NCBI RefSeq assembly: GCF_003918875.1
Contig: NW_025767344.1
Span: 434,001-498,000 of the forward strand
DNA: 64,000 bases
Origin: Haliotis rubra
Lineage: Eukaryota
Direction of reading: 5' to 3'
Shown: positions 6,001 to 42,000 of the stretch, one piece after another
Layout: each line of letters begins with the position of its first letter
How positions within the stretch are numbered: the first letter of the stretch is position 1
Made by a program: the position numbers

Positions 6001-9000
6001 GTGATAATCTGATAATAAATTTCATAAAACATCCTTTTTCGTGAAGTTATTGGTATTCTCAATTACAGGAAACTGACTGACCAAGCTACAGTATGTAGTC
6101 AACGATGTTGAAGTTTGTTGTTTAAGTGATTGGCATCATGAACATGGCTCTACCCGATTGGGACATAATGACATATATCAACAAATTTAGTGAGTCTGGC
6201 CATATGACGTTAAATGCCTTTTACAAGGATGGGTTGCTGAAGACAAACATGACCTGGACCTTTGCAGTCCAAAACTTGAAGGCCACATTGTGAAACTCCT
6301 GACGTAAATGATGGTGACAGTGACAGTGCTTGGTATGCAATCATTTGTGACTTGGAATGACGACTGGCCTGACACATAATTGACAAAATGCAGATATGCC
6401 ATTTTAGTTAAAAGAAAAGTACTTGATATGTCTGTTCTCGTCAGTGTAGCAGGCAATATCAACAGGATTATCACTGTGACAGACAAAAAAACTAATGACT
6501 TTATAATTTGTTTTTATTTCATATGTACAAATTCTGAATATCCTATTGCTGTTTTTCCTTCTTAAAATTGTCTGTTTTCATAAATCTGATCTTTTTTGGA
6601 TCAATACCATATGCCTTCAACCTGTCATCTGACATTCCAAAGTTCTTTTTCTTTCCTTTCTTGTTTTTGGGTTTCTTCGGTGACTGTTCACAATCTTTCT
6701 TACCATCTTGAGTGGACATGCCTTTTGTATCAAGCACACCATTGTCCAACTTGGCTTTCTTGCTTTTTTTTGGACTATGTGTTTCTGCGCTGTCGTTGTC
6801 ATGTTGGGAGGAGGTCACTTCCTCAGTTCTCTTCCTCTTTTTCTTCTTTTTCATTTTCTTATCAGAAGGACCGTCTACACGATCCACCCCTTTGCCCATG
6901 TTTATGCTACCGATAGAATCAGCTTCACTTTTGGCAACAACCTGGCCGTTAGCTCCTTTCTTCTTCTTCTTTCCATGAGCAGGAACATCTGCACAATCCT
7001 CCTCCTTTGCTGTGTCACTCACAGAGTCTACGTCATGTTTGACAAACACCTGGCCACTGCCACCTTTCTTCTTCTTCTTCTTCCCAAGAGCAGGAACATC
7101 TGCACAATCCTCCTCCTTTGCTGTGTCACTCACAGAGTCTACTTCACCTTTGACAAACACCTGGCCACTGCCACCTTTCTTCTTCTTCCTTGACTGACTG
7201 GTTGCATGGGCACTTCCTGCTGTGGAGCTGGTGCTGGGTTTGGGACTGTCAGGTTCCTTTTTCACACTGAAATACAGTTGGTGCTGCATCAAAATATGTT
7301 CAATGATAAAGGCAAGTGAAAACAGCCTTATTCCATTATGATGCCATCATAAAATGTATGTTACTCACATCTTCTAAAATGCCAAGCAAACAGATCTTTT
7401 GTTCAATGCATAATAAAAATTGCCCTATATAGTTGAACCCTGTTGATAAGGAGAATGTCAGATCATCTAAGGAAATACATTTACAAATGAATCAAGGTGG
7501 TGGGTTAAGCCGTATGGTTAAGTCATTCGCTCAAGACCTGTGTTCTATTCCCTGTACTGGTACAGTGTGTTCCTTTTCTGGTGCTCCTGCTGTGATGTTG
7601 ACAGACCATTGCTAAAGGCAGCGTAAAACCATAATGACTATATATGAGTCAACGGTTTAGAGTAATGTCCCTTTAGACACACACACTTTGATGTAGGAGG
7701 CTGGATGTAATATATCTAGAGTAATGACCCTTTGTACACACACTTTGATGTAGGAGGCTGGATGTAATATATCTAGAGTAATGTCCCTTTGTACACACAC
7801 TTTGATGTAGGAGGCTGGATGTAATATATCTAGAGTAATGTCCCTTTGTACACACACTTTGATGTAGGAGGCTGGATGTAATATATCTAGAGTAATGACC
7901 CTTTGTACACACACTTTGATGTAGGAGGCTGGATGTAACATATATCTAGAGTAATGTCTCTGTCTCTATGTAACAGCCCTGTCCACAGAAACTATGGTAC
8001 AGTAATAAAGACTGAGTGTCATCTGTGTTAACCATTGTGTAGTTTTACAGCCATGCTACATTTAAATGTTCAGAAAACATTATCATGTCAGTTCTGAAAA
8101 TGTGTGAAAATGTTTTGCCTATCTTCTGTTACCTGTCTTGCAGTGAGGTCAAGATGTTGGTCTTCTTCTTGGTGGTTGCCCGATGTCTGTATACTGACAG
8201 GTCTCGCTTCTCTTCCCCTTCACTCCTGGAACAACAAATCATATTGTCATACAGGCTGTAAACCCTGTACACCCTCCCTAGCTGTGCCTGTTTACTTATT
8301 CTGTATACTTATCTGAACCTGCACAGACACCTGTACAATCTTCCCCACCTGTATGTTTTTACACCTGTACATGTGTAAACACACTACATATCTCCCGTAA
8401 TTGAACATGTCTTCCCTGCCTGTGTGTCTCCCACCTCTCCATTTTTTAACTGTACACGTCTTCTATTCTGTATGTCTCCCACGTCTTTACTGCTGGAATA
8501 TTCATGTCTCCCCGCCTCTCTGTACCTGTACATGTTTGCCACCTCTGTACTGCTCAACGCCATACAGCTGGAATATTGCTGAGTACGCCGTAAAACTAAA
8601 ACTAAAACTCACTGTACTGCTCGAATATTCATGTCTCCCCGCCTCTCTACCTGTACATGTTTGCCACCTCTGTACTGCTCAACGCCATACAGCTGGAATA
8701 TTGCTGAGTACGCCGTAAAACTAAAACTAAAACTCAGCTGGAATATTGCTGAGCTCACCATAGCTGGAATATTGCTGAGAACGCCGTAAAACTAAAACTA
8801 AAACTCACTGTACTGCTCGAATATTCATGTCTCCCCGCCTCTCTGTACCTGTACATGTTTGCCACCTCTGTACTGCTCGACGCCATACAGCTGGAATATT
8901 GCTGAGTACGCCGTAAAACTAAAACTAAAACTCACTGTACTGCTCGAATGTTCATGTCTCCCTGCCTCTCTGTACCTGTACATGTTTGCCCAGATTGTAC

Positions 9001-39000: not shown

Positions 39001-42000
39001 GACTCCTGCAATATAAACAGGTGGGGTGTAGTCTCGGGTGGATTCAGACCTCTATCACAATCTTCGGGTCACTGGAGGCTGCAACAGGGGTATAAACAAG
39101 TTGTATGATAGTAAAGCACTGAGTTGCAGACTGTTCTGTTCCTTTGAAGGGCATTTAGAAGTGGAATGCCTAAGAAAAGCAATATTTATGCAGAACTCCA
39201 GATAAGATTTAGCTCATGTGGGTACTGTACCCACTGTATTTTTTTGGAGCGGGTATAATGAATGTTGAGTGGGTATTTCATCTTCTGTTACCCACTGCTT
39301 TCAAATATGTGCTTATTTCAGTCATTTTACTCACCTAAGTATTATGTCATTGAGTAAGTTTACTAAACAGGTGTGTTCTGCCTTATGTCATACCGAATCG
39401 AAACCAACTTAAATATAATGGAAATGATTTCATAAAAAATCACTCATCCTATACTGACAGTACAACACTTGTCCTATACTAACAGTACAACTTGATAGCA
39501 ATAGATGTCTTTTTCATTACGCGATTTTTATAAATATATTCCGTACGCATTTGTTTTAAACTTTTTGCGTATCTAACGTTTCAAATGCGTAATTTGCACG
39601 CAACAATTATTTTTCAATGCGTAATTGGACATTTTCTATGCGTATTTTACCCGGACACGCAGCTTATCTGGGCCTCTGTTTATGGATGTAAATGTCTTTA
39701 TAGTGAATAACACAATGTTTCGGGGTGTATGCTTGCTCCTTCATCAGGTGAATACTCCCTGCCATTTACCTGATGATACTATATGATGTATACTATACTC
39801 AACAGCAAAAGAAACATCAGTTTGGAATTTTCCTTCGCAGAAATGGATAACTGTAAACTCATTTAATGTTTTGATTGTATAGTTTTAACAACATCTCCAA
39901 CTTTACCTGAGCAAAGGCATTCCTTCCCAAACCCAGGAAATGGTCTCAAAAACGCAACATGATCTCGGAGATGGTACAGTGTTCTTCATGTTTTTCATGC
40001 AACTCATGCTGCACGTGCTGTTCACAAGGACCACCCTATAAAATGTACCCCCAAACGTGGTTGAAACATTCACATAACAACGTCAGCAGGATGTCCTTCT
40101 CACAATAGCTCAAAGGAACCAGGCGCTAGGAAGACTTGAAACTGGCCACACTGCACAAGCCGTTGCCAATCAATTCCAGGTCAACGTTCGGACCATCTAC
40201 AGACTGCAGCAACGTTTCCGGGCCACCAACACCACAAATGATCGCCCCGTACTGGCAGACCAAGGGTGACCACAAGACGACAAGACCGCCATGTTGTGCG
40301 ACAGCATGTACAGAATCCCTTCATGCAGGCATCCGAAACAGCACGCCAGACAGTAGGAACTCACGGAAGACCAATCAGTACTGATACAGTAGGCCGACGT
40401 CTTGACAGCGGGAACCTCCATTGCCGTAGACCTTACCATGGACCTATCCTCACCCCTCGTCATCGGAGTGAACACCAAAACTGGCGATACAGGCAATGGA
40501 GAACTGTTCTGTTCACAGATGAGAGTCGGTACTGCGTATCAACTGCAGATGGTAGAACAAGAATATGGTGACGACATGGCCAGCGTTACTCAGACCGATG
40601 TGTAATGGAAAGAGACTCATGGGGAGGTGCAAGCATCATGGTATGGGGTGGAATAGGCCTGGACCAGAAAGTGGGTCCTGTGGTGTTCCAGAACCTCGGT
40701 CCAGGGAGAGGACCAGAGCTACACGTGACTTCCTACAGTAGAACGGTGTCAACATTATGCAGTGGCCAGCCCTTAGTCCTGATTAAAAACCAAGTTGAAA
40801 ATCTTTGGGATGAAATTCAGAGAAGACTGAATAATGTCATACCAAGGCCGAACACAGCCAATTTATTGCGCCAGGCCTTTCTTAGAGTGTGGTTCCAGGT
40901 GCCAATGGCCTTCATCAATCAACTGGTGCACTCCATGCATAGACACTGAGCTGCAGTTATTGCCACTCATGGTGGTCACACTAGATACTAAAGTCAAGAG
41001 TCTGAATGGACTGCAAACGTTCACGTAATGTCTTGGAATTGTACTGAGTTATTCATTGATGTGTCAAGATATTGTGCACAAAAAATGGTTTTGATCCGCT
41101 TATTTTGTCCATTTCTGTCCTGATTTGATTACAGTGCCTATCTCATTTTGAATTCGTACTGACAGTTTTTTTTGCTGCTGAGTATATTATCTTGGGACTG
41201 GGAGAAGTGAGGCTGTAATGACTGACAGCCTTTGACAGGAGATGCAGTAGGATATTGATCAACCTGTGTAAGATGGACTTACCAGACCATGCTTGTCCAC
41301 ACCCCAGCTGTTAGGAATCTTAATGCCTTTACGGTCGTGGAGTTCAATCTGAGGAGATGCGGATGTCACATTAATTCTTAAAAGTAGCCAACTCCAACAG
41401 GCATGATGTCATGTTTGATGACTGCACACCCTGCTACACTCACACATCGTACAACATATGGGTTAACAGCACTGATGGTACAAAAATCGTGATTCACTGA
41501 TGCCTTCAAGGAATAAGGAGATACTTTAGCCAACGATAAACATGACATAAATCTCTGAGAAAATGAGTTTTACTCAGAGAGTACATTTGCATGGGGCTGC
41601 ATAAGAGAAACATTAATTTCTCCAGATTCTGACTGCTGTCAATGATACACACACAGCATACATAATATAGATAACCTACAATACCCTGATGGGTCATGAC
41701 AAGTGTTACCAAGTGGCTGATGTGGCAGTCAAATTTCAAAACCATTGAACAGTAACGACCCCTGTATGTCAATTTACCTTTTGACAGATTTTCATTACAT
41801 ATTTCCTATGAAAACCTTTTTGGGGTTAAATTTCAATATCAGGATTCTCCTTTATGGAAATATATCCTGAAGGATTGGACCGCCTCCGTGGTGTAGTGGT
41901 TAGAGCATCTGTCTGGAGAGTGGAAGATCGCGGGTTCGATCCCGGGCCGCACCATACCAAAAGATGTTAAAATATGGTACTTGTTGGTAACCGCCTGTAG

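What the first reader, a model, noticed from the sequence alone, without database searches (positions are those of the whole stretch)
8290..39100. Recurring pattern: tandem duplications anchored on splice junctions in three neighbouring genes
Seen at five junctions: KRI1 exon 6 acceptor (13452-14330); KRI1 exon 16 donor-like TACAG|GT motifs repeated through 8290-9015 (weakest case); PIGG exon 4 donor (22492-22690); PIGG exon 6 donor (24686-24745); and Ldh_2 exon 7 acceptor (38976-39100). That is about 5 of roughly 80 junctions in these genes. Inference: this may reflect a mutational process that seeds repeats at exon borders (splicing/R-loop or nucleosome-edge associated), giving raw material for intron gain or splice tuning. 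I know of no named system for this, but cannot establish novelty or enrichment by eye.
Basis: inference. Interest (0 to 1): 0.66.

Follow-up and report, generated by a model that had tools for sequence, protein, structure and literature searches.

The report
Splice-junction minisatellites in abalone genes
Three neighbouring abalone genes carry short tandem repeats whose end unit contains a working splice site, a kind of repeat already described in amphioxus ("mirages") and in a few human genes, and nothing here shows that a special process makes them.

Summary
Four of the five junction repeats are real. The window is abalone (Haliotis). In each of the four, the end unit of a tandem array holds a working splice junction:
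- KRI1 exon 6 acceptor (31 nt x 28)
- PIGG exon 4 donor (34 nt x 5.7)
- PIGG exon 6 donor (25 nt x 2.4)
- exon 7 acceptor of the Ldh_2-family gene (about 74 nt, two copies)

The fifth case, the KRI1 exon 16 donor, is an intronic array that carries the tail of a dispersed SINE-like repeat. Only the 7-mer TACAGGT recurs there.

The kind is already described: "mirages" in amphioxus, and exon-border minisatellites in human F7, 6-16, CBS.

About 10% of the window is local direct repeat. By position, junctions are hit no more often than intron interiors: 3 of 76 junctions against 5-9% of control positions. By event-based nulls, 4 are observed against 0.7-1.8 expected (P 0.003-0.085). These tests are post hoc, on a window picked because it showed the pattern. 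No junction-specific mutational process is shown.

Best reading: ordinary slippage or unequal exchange, tolerated because the exon-contiguous site still gives the normal mRNA. This is a new taxon for a known kind, of modest interest.

The parts
13453..14331 (-). 31-nt minisatellite, about 28 units. It fills most of KRI1 intron 5 and ends 6 nt inside exon 6. Every unit carries ...GTTC(C/T/A)AG|CATTG.
   Evidence: TRF. Sequence. Junction at 13459|13458. Of the 27 units, the last three bases are TAG in 10, AAG in 10, CAG in 5 and other in 2. Higher-order periods of 92, 123 and 154 nt.
13380..13458 (-). KRI1 coding exon 6. Its first 6 nt, CATTGC, are shared with the repeat unit.
   Evidence: zero length difference against H. 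rubra P0048. The residues S-I-A at this junction are conserved in 3 of 3 Haliotis KRI1 proteins.
22489..22683 (+). 34-nt array, 5.7 units. Unit 1 is the last 19 nt of PIGG exon 4 plus the first 15 nt of intron 4. Decoy donors start at 22542, 22610, 22644 and 22678.
   Evidence: TRF. Sequence. True donor at 22508. Decoy PWM scores are 12.5, 11.5, 9.7 and 9.7, against a median of 7.1 for real donors. Units 2-6 match unit 1 at 33, 25, 27, 24 and 25 of 34 positions.
22363..22507 (+). PIGG coding exon 4.
   Evidence: An in-frame TAA lies at 22513-22515, just inside the intron: the stop-to-stop frame ends at 22515.
24686..24745 (+). 25-nt array, 2.4 units. Unit 1 is the last 8 nt of PIGG exon 6 plus the first 17 nt of intron 6. 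A decoy donor starts at 24719.
   Evidence: TRF. Sequence. True donor at 24694. The decoy scores 8.8 and lies 25 nt downstream, which is out of frame.
38975..39030 (-). True acceptor copy of the Ldh_2-family gene: 25 nt of intron 6 tail, including the AG, plus the first 31 nt of exon 7.
39049..39110 (-). Upstream intronic copy of the same junction, a decoy acceptor. Its exon-like part starts at 39078, 73 nt upstream of the true exon start.
   Evidence: Alignment A4. Diagonal scan at offset 74. PWM score 8.8 against 10.7 for the true site.
8483..8994 (-). Tandem array in KRI1 intron 16, units of 125-198 nt. It starts 18 nt from the exon 16 donor (9012). It carries the 3' tail of a dispersed SINE-like family and does not span the junction.
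6958..7188 (-). In-frame 111-nt (37-codon) tandem duplication inside the last KRI1 coding exon.
   Evidence: TRF (2.1 copies, 95% matches). It is present in the window and in H. rubra P0048, and absent from the H. rufescens and H. asinina proteins.

Best explanation
These are junction-spanning minisatellites of the kind called 'mirages' in amphioxus.

Origin (inferred). The abalone genome makes many short tandem duplications by replication slippage and unequal exchange. Some of the duplicated segments happen to include a splice junction.

Persistence (partly shown). A junction-spanning duplication leaves one complete copy of the junction joined to its exon. The normal mRNA is still made as long as that copy is used. 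The extra copies then simply lie in the intron, where the array can grow and decay. Duplications wholly inside exons survive only if they are in frame.

Site choice (inferred by analogy). At donors, the first, exon-contiguous site wins, as was shown for human F7. At acceptors, the last unit wins because it is the one next to the exon. No process aimed at exon borders is needed.
For: 1. Repeat-rich background. 9.2-10.7% of the window is local direct repeat. Arrays also lie in intron interiors, in intergenic DNA and in a coding exon.
2. Slippage and unequal-exchange signatures.
- The PIGG exon 6 array has the form A-B-A-B-A, with the 10-nt TCAGTCTGGT present three times at 25-nt spacing.
- The KRI1 array has higher-order periods of 92, 123 and 154 nt and no polarity.
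- A 111-nt in-frame duplication in the last KRI1 exon is present in H. rubra and this window but absent from the other two Haliotis KRI1 proteins, so duplication is recent in this gene.
3. The exon-contiguous site gives the normal product. At all 38 introns the chosen GT-AG pair fits the orthologue with zero length difference.
4. Other copies would break the message.
- PIGG exon 4: an in-frame TAA lies 6-8 nt into the intron, and decoys sit at +34, +102, +136 and +170.
- PIGG exon 6: the decoy is at +25.
- Ldh_2 exon 7: the decoy is at +73.
- KRI1 exon 6: an in-frame stop lies 45-47 nt upstream of the exon (frame limit 13502).
5. No excess by position. 3 of 76 junction cores have a nearby copy, against 8.9% of 2000 controls, or 5.3% of 1921 after excluding the four arrays. 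The other 12 arrays are evenly placed in their introns.
6. Precedent. The same anatomy with undisturbed splicing is reported in amphioxus Adh3, globin, TnC and PGBD5 (PMC3087553; PMC3902484). In human F7, five functional pseudo-donors stay silent because the most upstream site is selected (PMC1557585).
Against: 1. Event-based nulls give a nominal excess. Seed placement expects 1.33 junction-spanning families of 16, and 4 are observed (P 0.032). With units under 100 nt only, 0.68 of 13 are expected (P 0.003). Placing each array at random in its own intron expects 1.82 (P 0.085). Relative distance to the nearest junction averages 0.34 rather than 0.5 (t-test P 0.065).
2. Four of the five PIGG exon 4 decoy donors still score at or above the 87th percentile of real donors. 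They may simply be young, but maintenance is also possible.
3. No RNA data were available. That the decoys are silent is an inference from orthologue proteins and from other species.
4. For KRI1 exon 6 the order of events is open: either the junction seeded the array, or the array supplied the acceptor.
Confidence: 0.7

Rival explanations
1. A mutational process really does seed tandem duplications preferentially at exon borders, for example through R-loops, stalled co-transcriptional splicing, or breakage or recombination at nucleosome edges.
For: - Four junction-spanning families among 16 repeat families in three adjacent genes, against 0.68-1.82 expected under event-based nulls (P 0.003-0.085).
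- PMC3087553 calls the generating mechanism of amphioxus mirages 'unclear' and suggests they may be a general phenomenon there.
Against: - The position-based test shows no excess.
- The remaining 12 arrays show no pull towards junctions (KS P 0.87).
- The sample is one window, chosen because of the pattern.
- Both donors and acceptors, and units from 25 to 74 nt, are involved, so there is no common breakpoint signature.
- The GC skew profile shows nothing special at these four sites at 2-kb resolution.
Confidence: 0.12
2. The arrays are kept because they tune splicing. The reiterated pseudo-sites would act as decoys or ratchets that set the share of productive mRNA, with the other products frameshifted and degraded.
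For: - Decoy sites are strong. PIGG intron 4 decoys score 9.7-12.5 and the Ldh_2 decoy acceptor scores 8.8, within the range of real sites.
- In human 6-16 and CBS the two nearest pseudo-sites are used, as stated in the Introduction of PMC1557585.
- An intronic minisatellite is over-represented near alternative splicing regions in C. elegans (PMC4039745, abstract).
Against: - Units decay away from unit 1 in PIGG (24-27 of 34 positions for units 3-6).
- Only 5 of 27 KRI1 units keep CAG.
- The pre-mRNA around the PIGG array has no unusual fold (z +0.69).
- There are no expression data and no conservation data.
Confidence: 0.08
3. The array came first and the junction moved into it. Under this reading, which applies to KRI1 exon 6, a pre-existing intronic minisatellite whose units end in YAG supplied the acceptor now in use.
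For: - Only 6 nt of the exon are shared with the unit.
- Each unit carries a pyrimidine-rich stretch and an AG.
- The exon-adjacent unit has CTAAT 19-20 nt upstream of the AG. That this fits a branch-site consensus is from recall.
Against: - The residues encoded across the junction, K-S-I-A, are the same in 3 of 3 Haliotis KRI1 proteins. The junction is therefore at least as old as their split, unless the array is too.
- The other three cases duplicate 8-31 nt of conserved exon and cannot be explained this way.
Confidence: 0.08
4. Assembly or annotation artefact: the repeats would be collapsed or expanded assembly errors, or the exon borders would be misplaced.
For: Two single-base frame breaks against the orthologues, in PIGG exon 1 and Ldh_2 exon 2, hint at residual indel errors in this assembly.
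Against: - Units differ from each other by 3-30%, which assembly errors do not produce.
- All 38 introns fit orthologue proteins with zero length difference and GT-AG ends.
- KRI1 exons are 91-100% identical to the H. rubra protein.
Confidence: 0.02

Closest known systems
[quoted passage not shown] Reported for Adh3, globins BflGb6 and BflGb9, TnC and PGBD5. Sources: PMC3087553 (passages read) and PMC3902484 (one passage). The original Adh3 paper, Canestro et al. 2002, was seen only as a cited reference and is not held.
   Same: - Tandem units of 10-160 bp that include an exon edge and its splice signal.
- Both 5' and 3' boundaries are affected.
- Several genes in one genome.
- Many units keep AG/GT signals.
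- Block-wise turnover inside the array.
   Different: - Here the host is a mollusc; I found no report outside cephalochordates under that name.
- Undisturbed splicing and length instability were shown in amphioxus by RT-PCR and haplotypes. Neither could be tested here.
Human exon-border minisatellites with reiterated 5' pseudo-sites: the F7 IVS7 37-bp VNTR, 6-16, CBS IVS13, LMNB2 and PDGF intron 4. Source: PMC1557585 (abstract and passages).
   Same: - The first monomer spans the exon-intron boundary. In F7 it holds 4 nt of exon plus 33 nt of intron. In PIGG exon 4 it holds 19 + 15 nt, and in PIGG exon 6 it holds 8 + 17 nt.
- The donor is repeated downstream, in identical or near-identical form.
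   Different: - The human cases listed are all on the donor side. Two of the four cases here are on the acceptor side.
- Selection of the most upstream donor by 5'-3' scanning was demonstrated with F7 minigenes. Here it is only inferred.
Intron gain by tandem genomic duplication of an AGGT-containing segment. Sources: PMC3443670 (passages), PMC2891723 (abstract), PMC2812944 (passages). PMC3265369 and PMC4974935 were seen only in the search listing.
   Same: Tandem duplication creates extra CAG|GT sites inside a gene, and such repeats are the proposed starting material.
   Different: - No new intron has been made here. The arrays sit at junctions of existing introns.
- None of the 38 introns has a donor region resembling its acceptor region.

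Membership tests
Mirage / exon-border minisatellite | Head-to-tail tandem copies, with units of roughly 10-160 bp | tested here: met
   Units of 31, 34 and 25 nt from TRF. A pair about 74 nt apart from the diagonal scan and the alignment. Shuffled windows give 0-2 passing segments against 1483 in the real window.
Mirage / exon-border minisatellite | A terminal unit contains a real exon-intron boundary, with exon bases on one side and intron bases on the other | tested here: met
   Met at 4 of the 5 proposed junctions. The exon share is 6, 19, 8 and about 31 nt. Not met at the KRI1 exon 16 donor.
Mirage / exon-border minisatellite | The splice signal is reiterated in further units | tested here: met
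   PWM built from the window's own 38 donors and 38 acceptors. It finds 4 strong decoy donors in PIGG intron 4, 1 in PIGG intron 6, 21 repeat-unit AG sites scoring at least 3 in KRI1 intron 5, and 1 decoy acceptor in Ldh_2 intron 6.
Mirage / exon-border minisatellite | Regular splicing is not disturbed: pseudo-sites are silent or only the nearest ones are used | not testable with these tools
   No transcript data were available. The only support is indirect: the exon-contiguous sites reproduce the orthologue proteins with zero length difference.
Mirage / exon-border minisatellite | Copy-number instability between haplotypes or individuals | not testable with these tools
   Only one haplotype is in hand, and no eukaryotic genome collection was available.
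Intron gained by tandem genomic duplication | The two ends of the intron are copies of each other: the sequence around the donor resembles the sequence around the acceptor | tested here: not met
   Local alignment of the donor region against the acceptor region for 38 of 38 introns. The best z is 3.0, and no score exceeds the maximum of its own 200 shuffles.
Intron gained by tandem genomic duplication | The intron is absent at that position in relatives | not testable with these tools
   Only orthologue proteins were available, not their gene structures.
Recursive splice site (juxtaposed acceptor and donor used stepwise in long introns) | A pyrimidine tract followed by CAG|GTAAGT inside a long intron | tested here: inconclusive
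   CAG|GTAAGT recurs at 22542 and CAG|GTAGGT at 22610. But the intron is only 644 nt, and I did not score these sites as acceptors. The family's features are from recall.
Tandem array derived from a dispersed SINE-like element (KRI1 intron 16 only) | Units share sequence with dispersed copies elsewhere | tested here: met
   Three units match 28017-28066 at 88-91% over 43-52 nt. The same tail appears in copies at about 5.5, 21, 24, 30 and 47 kb. ARAGORN finds no tRNA gene, so 'tRNA-derived' rests only on a box-B-like GGTTCGATTC in 3 of 9 aligned rows; that motif is from recall.

The most novel reading that the evidence does not exclude
Tandem-duplication seeds do hit splice junctions several-fold more often than neutral placement predicts, both in abalone and in amphioxus. 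Both are highly polymorphic, repeat-rich marine invertebrates. If so, a transcription-, splicing- or recombination-linked process would make exon borders duplication hot spots. These arrays would then be a standing nursery for splice-site shifts and new introns.
Probability: 0.12. Interest if true: 0.6.

Novelty: new member of a known kind. Interest (0 to 1): 0.3.

Why it matters
If the ordinary reading holds, the value is descriptive. Junction-spanning minisatellites, so far named only in amphioxus and known from a handful of human genes, also occur in a mollusc, at four junctions in three adjacent genes and on both the donor and the acceptor side.

They are natural competition experiments for splice-site choice. 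PIGG has five near-consensus donors 34 nt apart. KRI1 has two dozen reiterated acceptors.

They are also a practical hazard for gene prediction in repeat-rich invertebrate genomes.

The open question, which the amphioxus authors also left open, is how these repeats arise and whether junctions are preferred. That can be tested genome-wide with data that already exist.

Tried and rejected
- Intron birth by duplication. I compared the donor and acceptor regions of all 38 introns and found no similarity above shuffles. This included Ldh_2 intron 2, where a weak tblastn match had suggested it.
- Self-BLAST as the repeat detector. It missed the 25-nt PIGG exon 6 array and the junction part of the Ldh_2 pair. 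I replaced it with my own diagonal scan.
- MAFFT alignment of the eight TACAGGT contexts in KRI1 intron 16. It was uninformative. The junction core has no significant nearby copy.
- Polarity of unit divergence. There is none in KRI1. In PIGG exon 4 only unit 2 is close to unit 1.
- RNA structure hiding the decoy donors: z +0.69.
- Known RNA families: 0 matches in the window.
- tRNA genes: 0.
- A possible sixth case: a 24-nt pair at 25788-25811 and 26308-26331, across the PIGG intron 7 acceptor. It matches at 20 of 24 positions. About 0.6 such chance segments are expected per window, so I left it out.
- Papers not held: Gao and Lynch 2009, Turri 1995 and Canestro 2002. I cite them only as references seen in other papers.
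- Joined spliced models. I sent none to any search or fold; searches went exon by exon.
- DNA from other Haliotis genomes could not be compared, because no eukaryotic genome collection was available.
- Supplementary files of the papers were not opened. The amphioxus alignments in the additional files of PMC3087553 might sharpen the comparison.

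
Full report
WHAT THE WINDOW IS
The window is abalone, not human, and holds no N. Single-exon protein searches found Haliotis orthologues of three genes:
- KRI1 (P0048 H. rubra, P0049 H. rufescens, P0050 H. asinina)
- GPI ethanolamine phosphate transferase 2, PIGG (P0001 H. asinina, P0002 H. cracherodii)
- an Ldh_2-family 'YjmC-like' oxidoreductase (P0154 H. asinina)

In tblastn, KRI1 exons are 91-100% identical to the H. rubra protein.

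Exon borders came from tblastn pieces plus a scan for the GT-AG pair that fits the orthologue best. Every one of the 38 introns was placed with zero length difference.
- KRI1: minus strand, 19653-6546, 17 introns
- PIGG: plus strand, 20029-29669, 11 introns
- Ldh_2-family gene: minus strand, 47083-31295, 10 introns

THE OBSERVATION

1. KRI1 exon 6 acceptor. TRF reports 27.9 copies of a 31-nt unit at 13453-14331. Exon 6 begins at 13458. The array therefore ends 6 nt inside the exon. On the gene strand every unit reads CATTGC...GTTC(C/T/A)AG, followed by the next CATTGC.

2. PIGG exon 4 donor. There are 5.7 copies of a 34-nt unit at 22489-22683. The exon ends at 22507. Unit 1 is the last 19 exon bases plus GTAAGTAAAGCCATT. 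Unit 2 differs from it at 1 of 34 positions.

3. PIGG exon 6 donor. There are 2.4 copies of a 25-nt unit at 24686-24745. The exon ends at 24693.

4. Ldh_2 exon 7 acceptor. TRF missed this one. My diagonal scan and an alignment show two copies, 38975-39030 and 39049-39110. Each holds the pyrimidine tract, the AG and about 31 exon bases.

5. KRI1 exon 16 donor.
- TACAGGT is indeed clustered: 8 of the window's 22 matches lie in 8329-9017, against 10.15 expected for the whole window.
- The junction's 30-nt core has no nearby copy above background.
- The array at 8483-8994 begins 18 nt inside the intron.
- Its units carry about 50 nt of the 3' tail of a dispersed repeat. Copies of that repeat lie at about 5.5, 21, 24, 28, 30, 47 and 60 kb.

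The similarities are not chance. The same scan passes 0-2 segments in 8 block-shuffled windows, against 1483 in the real one.

IS IT MORE THAN THE REPEAT DENSITY PREDICTS?
The answer depends on the null. I give all of them.

Background. Between 9.2 and 10.7% of the window lies in local direct repeats.

By position:
- With BLAST hits, 2 of 76 junctions are spanned, against 7.4-7.8% of intron positions and 5.4-5.8% of exon positions.
- With 30-nt cores and a score of at least 17, 3 of 76 junctions have a nearby copy, against 7.6% of 1500 intron controls.
- A second control sample gave 8.9% of 2000.
- Leaving out the territory of the four arrays themselves, the control rate is 5.3% of 1921. That expects 4.0 junctions.
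- The Ldh_2 case falls below that threshold, so by eye the count is 4.

By event, the question is whether the duplicated unit includes a junction:
- Among 16 repeat families in the three genes, 1.33 are expected to span a junction and 4 do (P 0.032).
- With the 13 families whose units are under 100 nt, the expectation is 0.68 (P 0.003).
- Placing each array at random in its own intron expects 1.82 (P 0.085).
- Relative distance to the nearest junction averages 0.34 instead of 0.5 (t-test P 0.065).
- The 12 arrays that do not span a junction are evenly spread (mean 0.45, KS P 0.87).

I compiled the list of families by hand. One family, the 300-nt pair at about 38 kb, lies inside a mobile element; dropping it lowers the expectations by about 0.1. 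These P values are post hoc, because the window was flagged for this very pattern. A 2-6 fold excess is therefore possible but not shown.

WHAT IT MOST LIKELY IS
The most likely reading is ordinary tandem duplication in a repeat-rich genome, filtered by what the gene tolerates.

Signs of slippage and unequal exchange:
- The PIGG exon 6 array has the form A-B-A-B-A, with a 10-nt A present three times.
- The KRI1 array has higher-order periods of 92, 123 and 154 nt. Its longest internal match is at offset 125. Identity to the exon-adjacent unit shows no gradient with distance (rho -0.07, P 0.74).
- The last KRI1 exon carries an in-frame 111-nt duplication. It is present in the window and in H. 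rubra and absent from H. rufescens and H. asinina, so duplication in this gene is recent.

Tolerance. The copy joined to the exon reproduces the orthologue protein. Any other copy would break it:
- In PIGG intron 4, an in-frame TAA lies at 22513-22515. Decoy donors sit at +34, +102, +136 and +170.
- In PIGG intron 6, the decoy is at +25.
- In Ldh_2 intron 6, the decoy acceptor is at +73.
- Upstream of KRI1 exon 6, the reading frame closes 45-47 nt before the exon.

Decoy strength. I scored the decoys with a position weight matrix built from the window's own 38 donors and 38 acceptors. They are not weak. The PIGG intron 4 decoys score 12.5, 11.5, 9.7 and 9.7, against a median of 7.1 for real donors.

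Site choice is an inference, because I had no transcripts. For donors I lean on human F7. There, five functional pseudo-donors in a 37-bp minisatellite stay silent because the most upstream site is selected (PMC1557585, abstract and passages). For acceptors I assume that the unit next to the exon wins. The exon-adjacent KRI1 unit has CTAAT 19-20 nt before the AG. That this fits a branch-site consensus is from recall.

WHAT IT IS NOT
- Not intron birth. No intron has ends that resemble each other.
- Not an RNA structure (z +0.69).
- Not a known RNA family.
- Not an assembly artefact, since units differ by 3-30%.

COMPARISON WITH WHAT IS KNOWN
[quoted passage not shown] They were then found in globin genes, at both 5' and 3' boundaries, with units of 10-160 bp, normal splicing and unstable length. 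The authors suggested them as a source of new introns and called the generating mechanism unclear (PMC3087553, passages). TnC and PGBD5 add further cases (PMC3902484, one passage).

[quoted passage not shown] Internal tandem repeats at exon-intron boundaries that create introns are described in PMC2812944. Intron gain by tandem duplication is reviewed in PMC3443670.

Under the word 'mirages' I found only the two amphioxus papers among 11 hits. A Haliotis search found nothing on this. Both statements hold only for the library searched.

The abalone arrays meet the three structural criteria of the kind. Undisturbed splicing and length polymorphism could not be tested.

VERDICT
It is a known kind in a new taxon. 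A mutational bias towards junctions is not shown.

Noticed in passing
window 6958-7188 (minus strand, last KRI1 coding exon): An in-frame 111-nt (37-residue) tandem duplication in a lysine-rich tail. It is present here and in the H. rubra protein and absent from the H. rufescens and H. asinina KRI1 proteins.
   Followed up: yes
window 32819-38305, inside Ldh_2 intron 8: An insert of about 5.5 kb with inverted terminal repeats (32819-33029 against 38305-38110, 86.7% over 211 nt) and long plus-strand reading frames. By eye these look like reverse transcriptase, RNase H and a recombinase. Pfam found no family for the 4 frames I tested, so the label 'DIRS-like retroelement' is from recall only.
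   Followed up: partly
window 40078-40949, inside Ldh_2 intron 6: A remnant of a Tc1/mariner-type transposase, split over at least two frames. The frame at 40242-40571 matches the Pfam HTH_Tnp_Tc3_2 domain at E 1.6e-08.
   Followed up: partly
window about 5472-5581, 21011-21113, 24079-24222, 28017-28077, 29992-30101, 47128-47269, 60220-60303: A dispersed repeat family of about 100-145 nt on both strands, at 78-91% identity. It ends in ...GCTGGAATATTGCTGA...GTAAAAC...CTCAC. Three of the 9 aligned rows carry GGGTTCGATTC, which resembles a tRNA box B (from recall). ARAGORN finds no tRNA. The family is probably a SINE, and its tail sits inside the KRI1 intron 16 array.
   Followed up: partly
window about 20020-20035 (PIGG exon 1) and about 46100 (Ldh_2 exon 2): Single-base frame breaks relative to the Haliotis orthologues. 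In PIGG the frame carrying MEKKEYFVIGLALVQLLSF switches before FLKGFFPLKQ. The Ldh_2 gene reads ...NFSMDLS and then continues as AIQKAMSAG in another frame. These are either residual indel errors of the assembly or real lesions.
   Followed up: partly
window 61755-63567: The largest array in the window: a G-rich 22-nt satellite of about 80 units, with 44- and 66-nt higher-order periods. It lies in intergenic DNA, where the 2-kb GC skew is +0.58.
   Followed up: no
window 25788-25811 and 26308-26331: A 24-nt pair matching at 20 of 24 positions. One member spans the PIGG intron 7 acceptor and the other lies 520 nt downstream in intron 8. It could be a decayed junction copy or chance; about 0.6 such segments are expected per window.
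   Followed up: partly
window 53434-54498 and 56254-56400 (minus strand); window 100-2330 (plus strand): An actin gene (Pfam Actin, E 2e-124), and exons of a leucine-rich-repeat F-box-like gene. The second label comes from reading the frames; Pfam found nothing for the one exon I tested. No local repeat touches their exon borders in the diagonal scan.
   Followed up: partly
window 17366-17453 and 45151-45255: Long microsatellites inside introns: (GT)44 in KRI1 intron 3 and (AGGTG)21 in Ldh_2 intron 3. Neither is near a junction.
   Followed up: no
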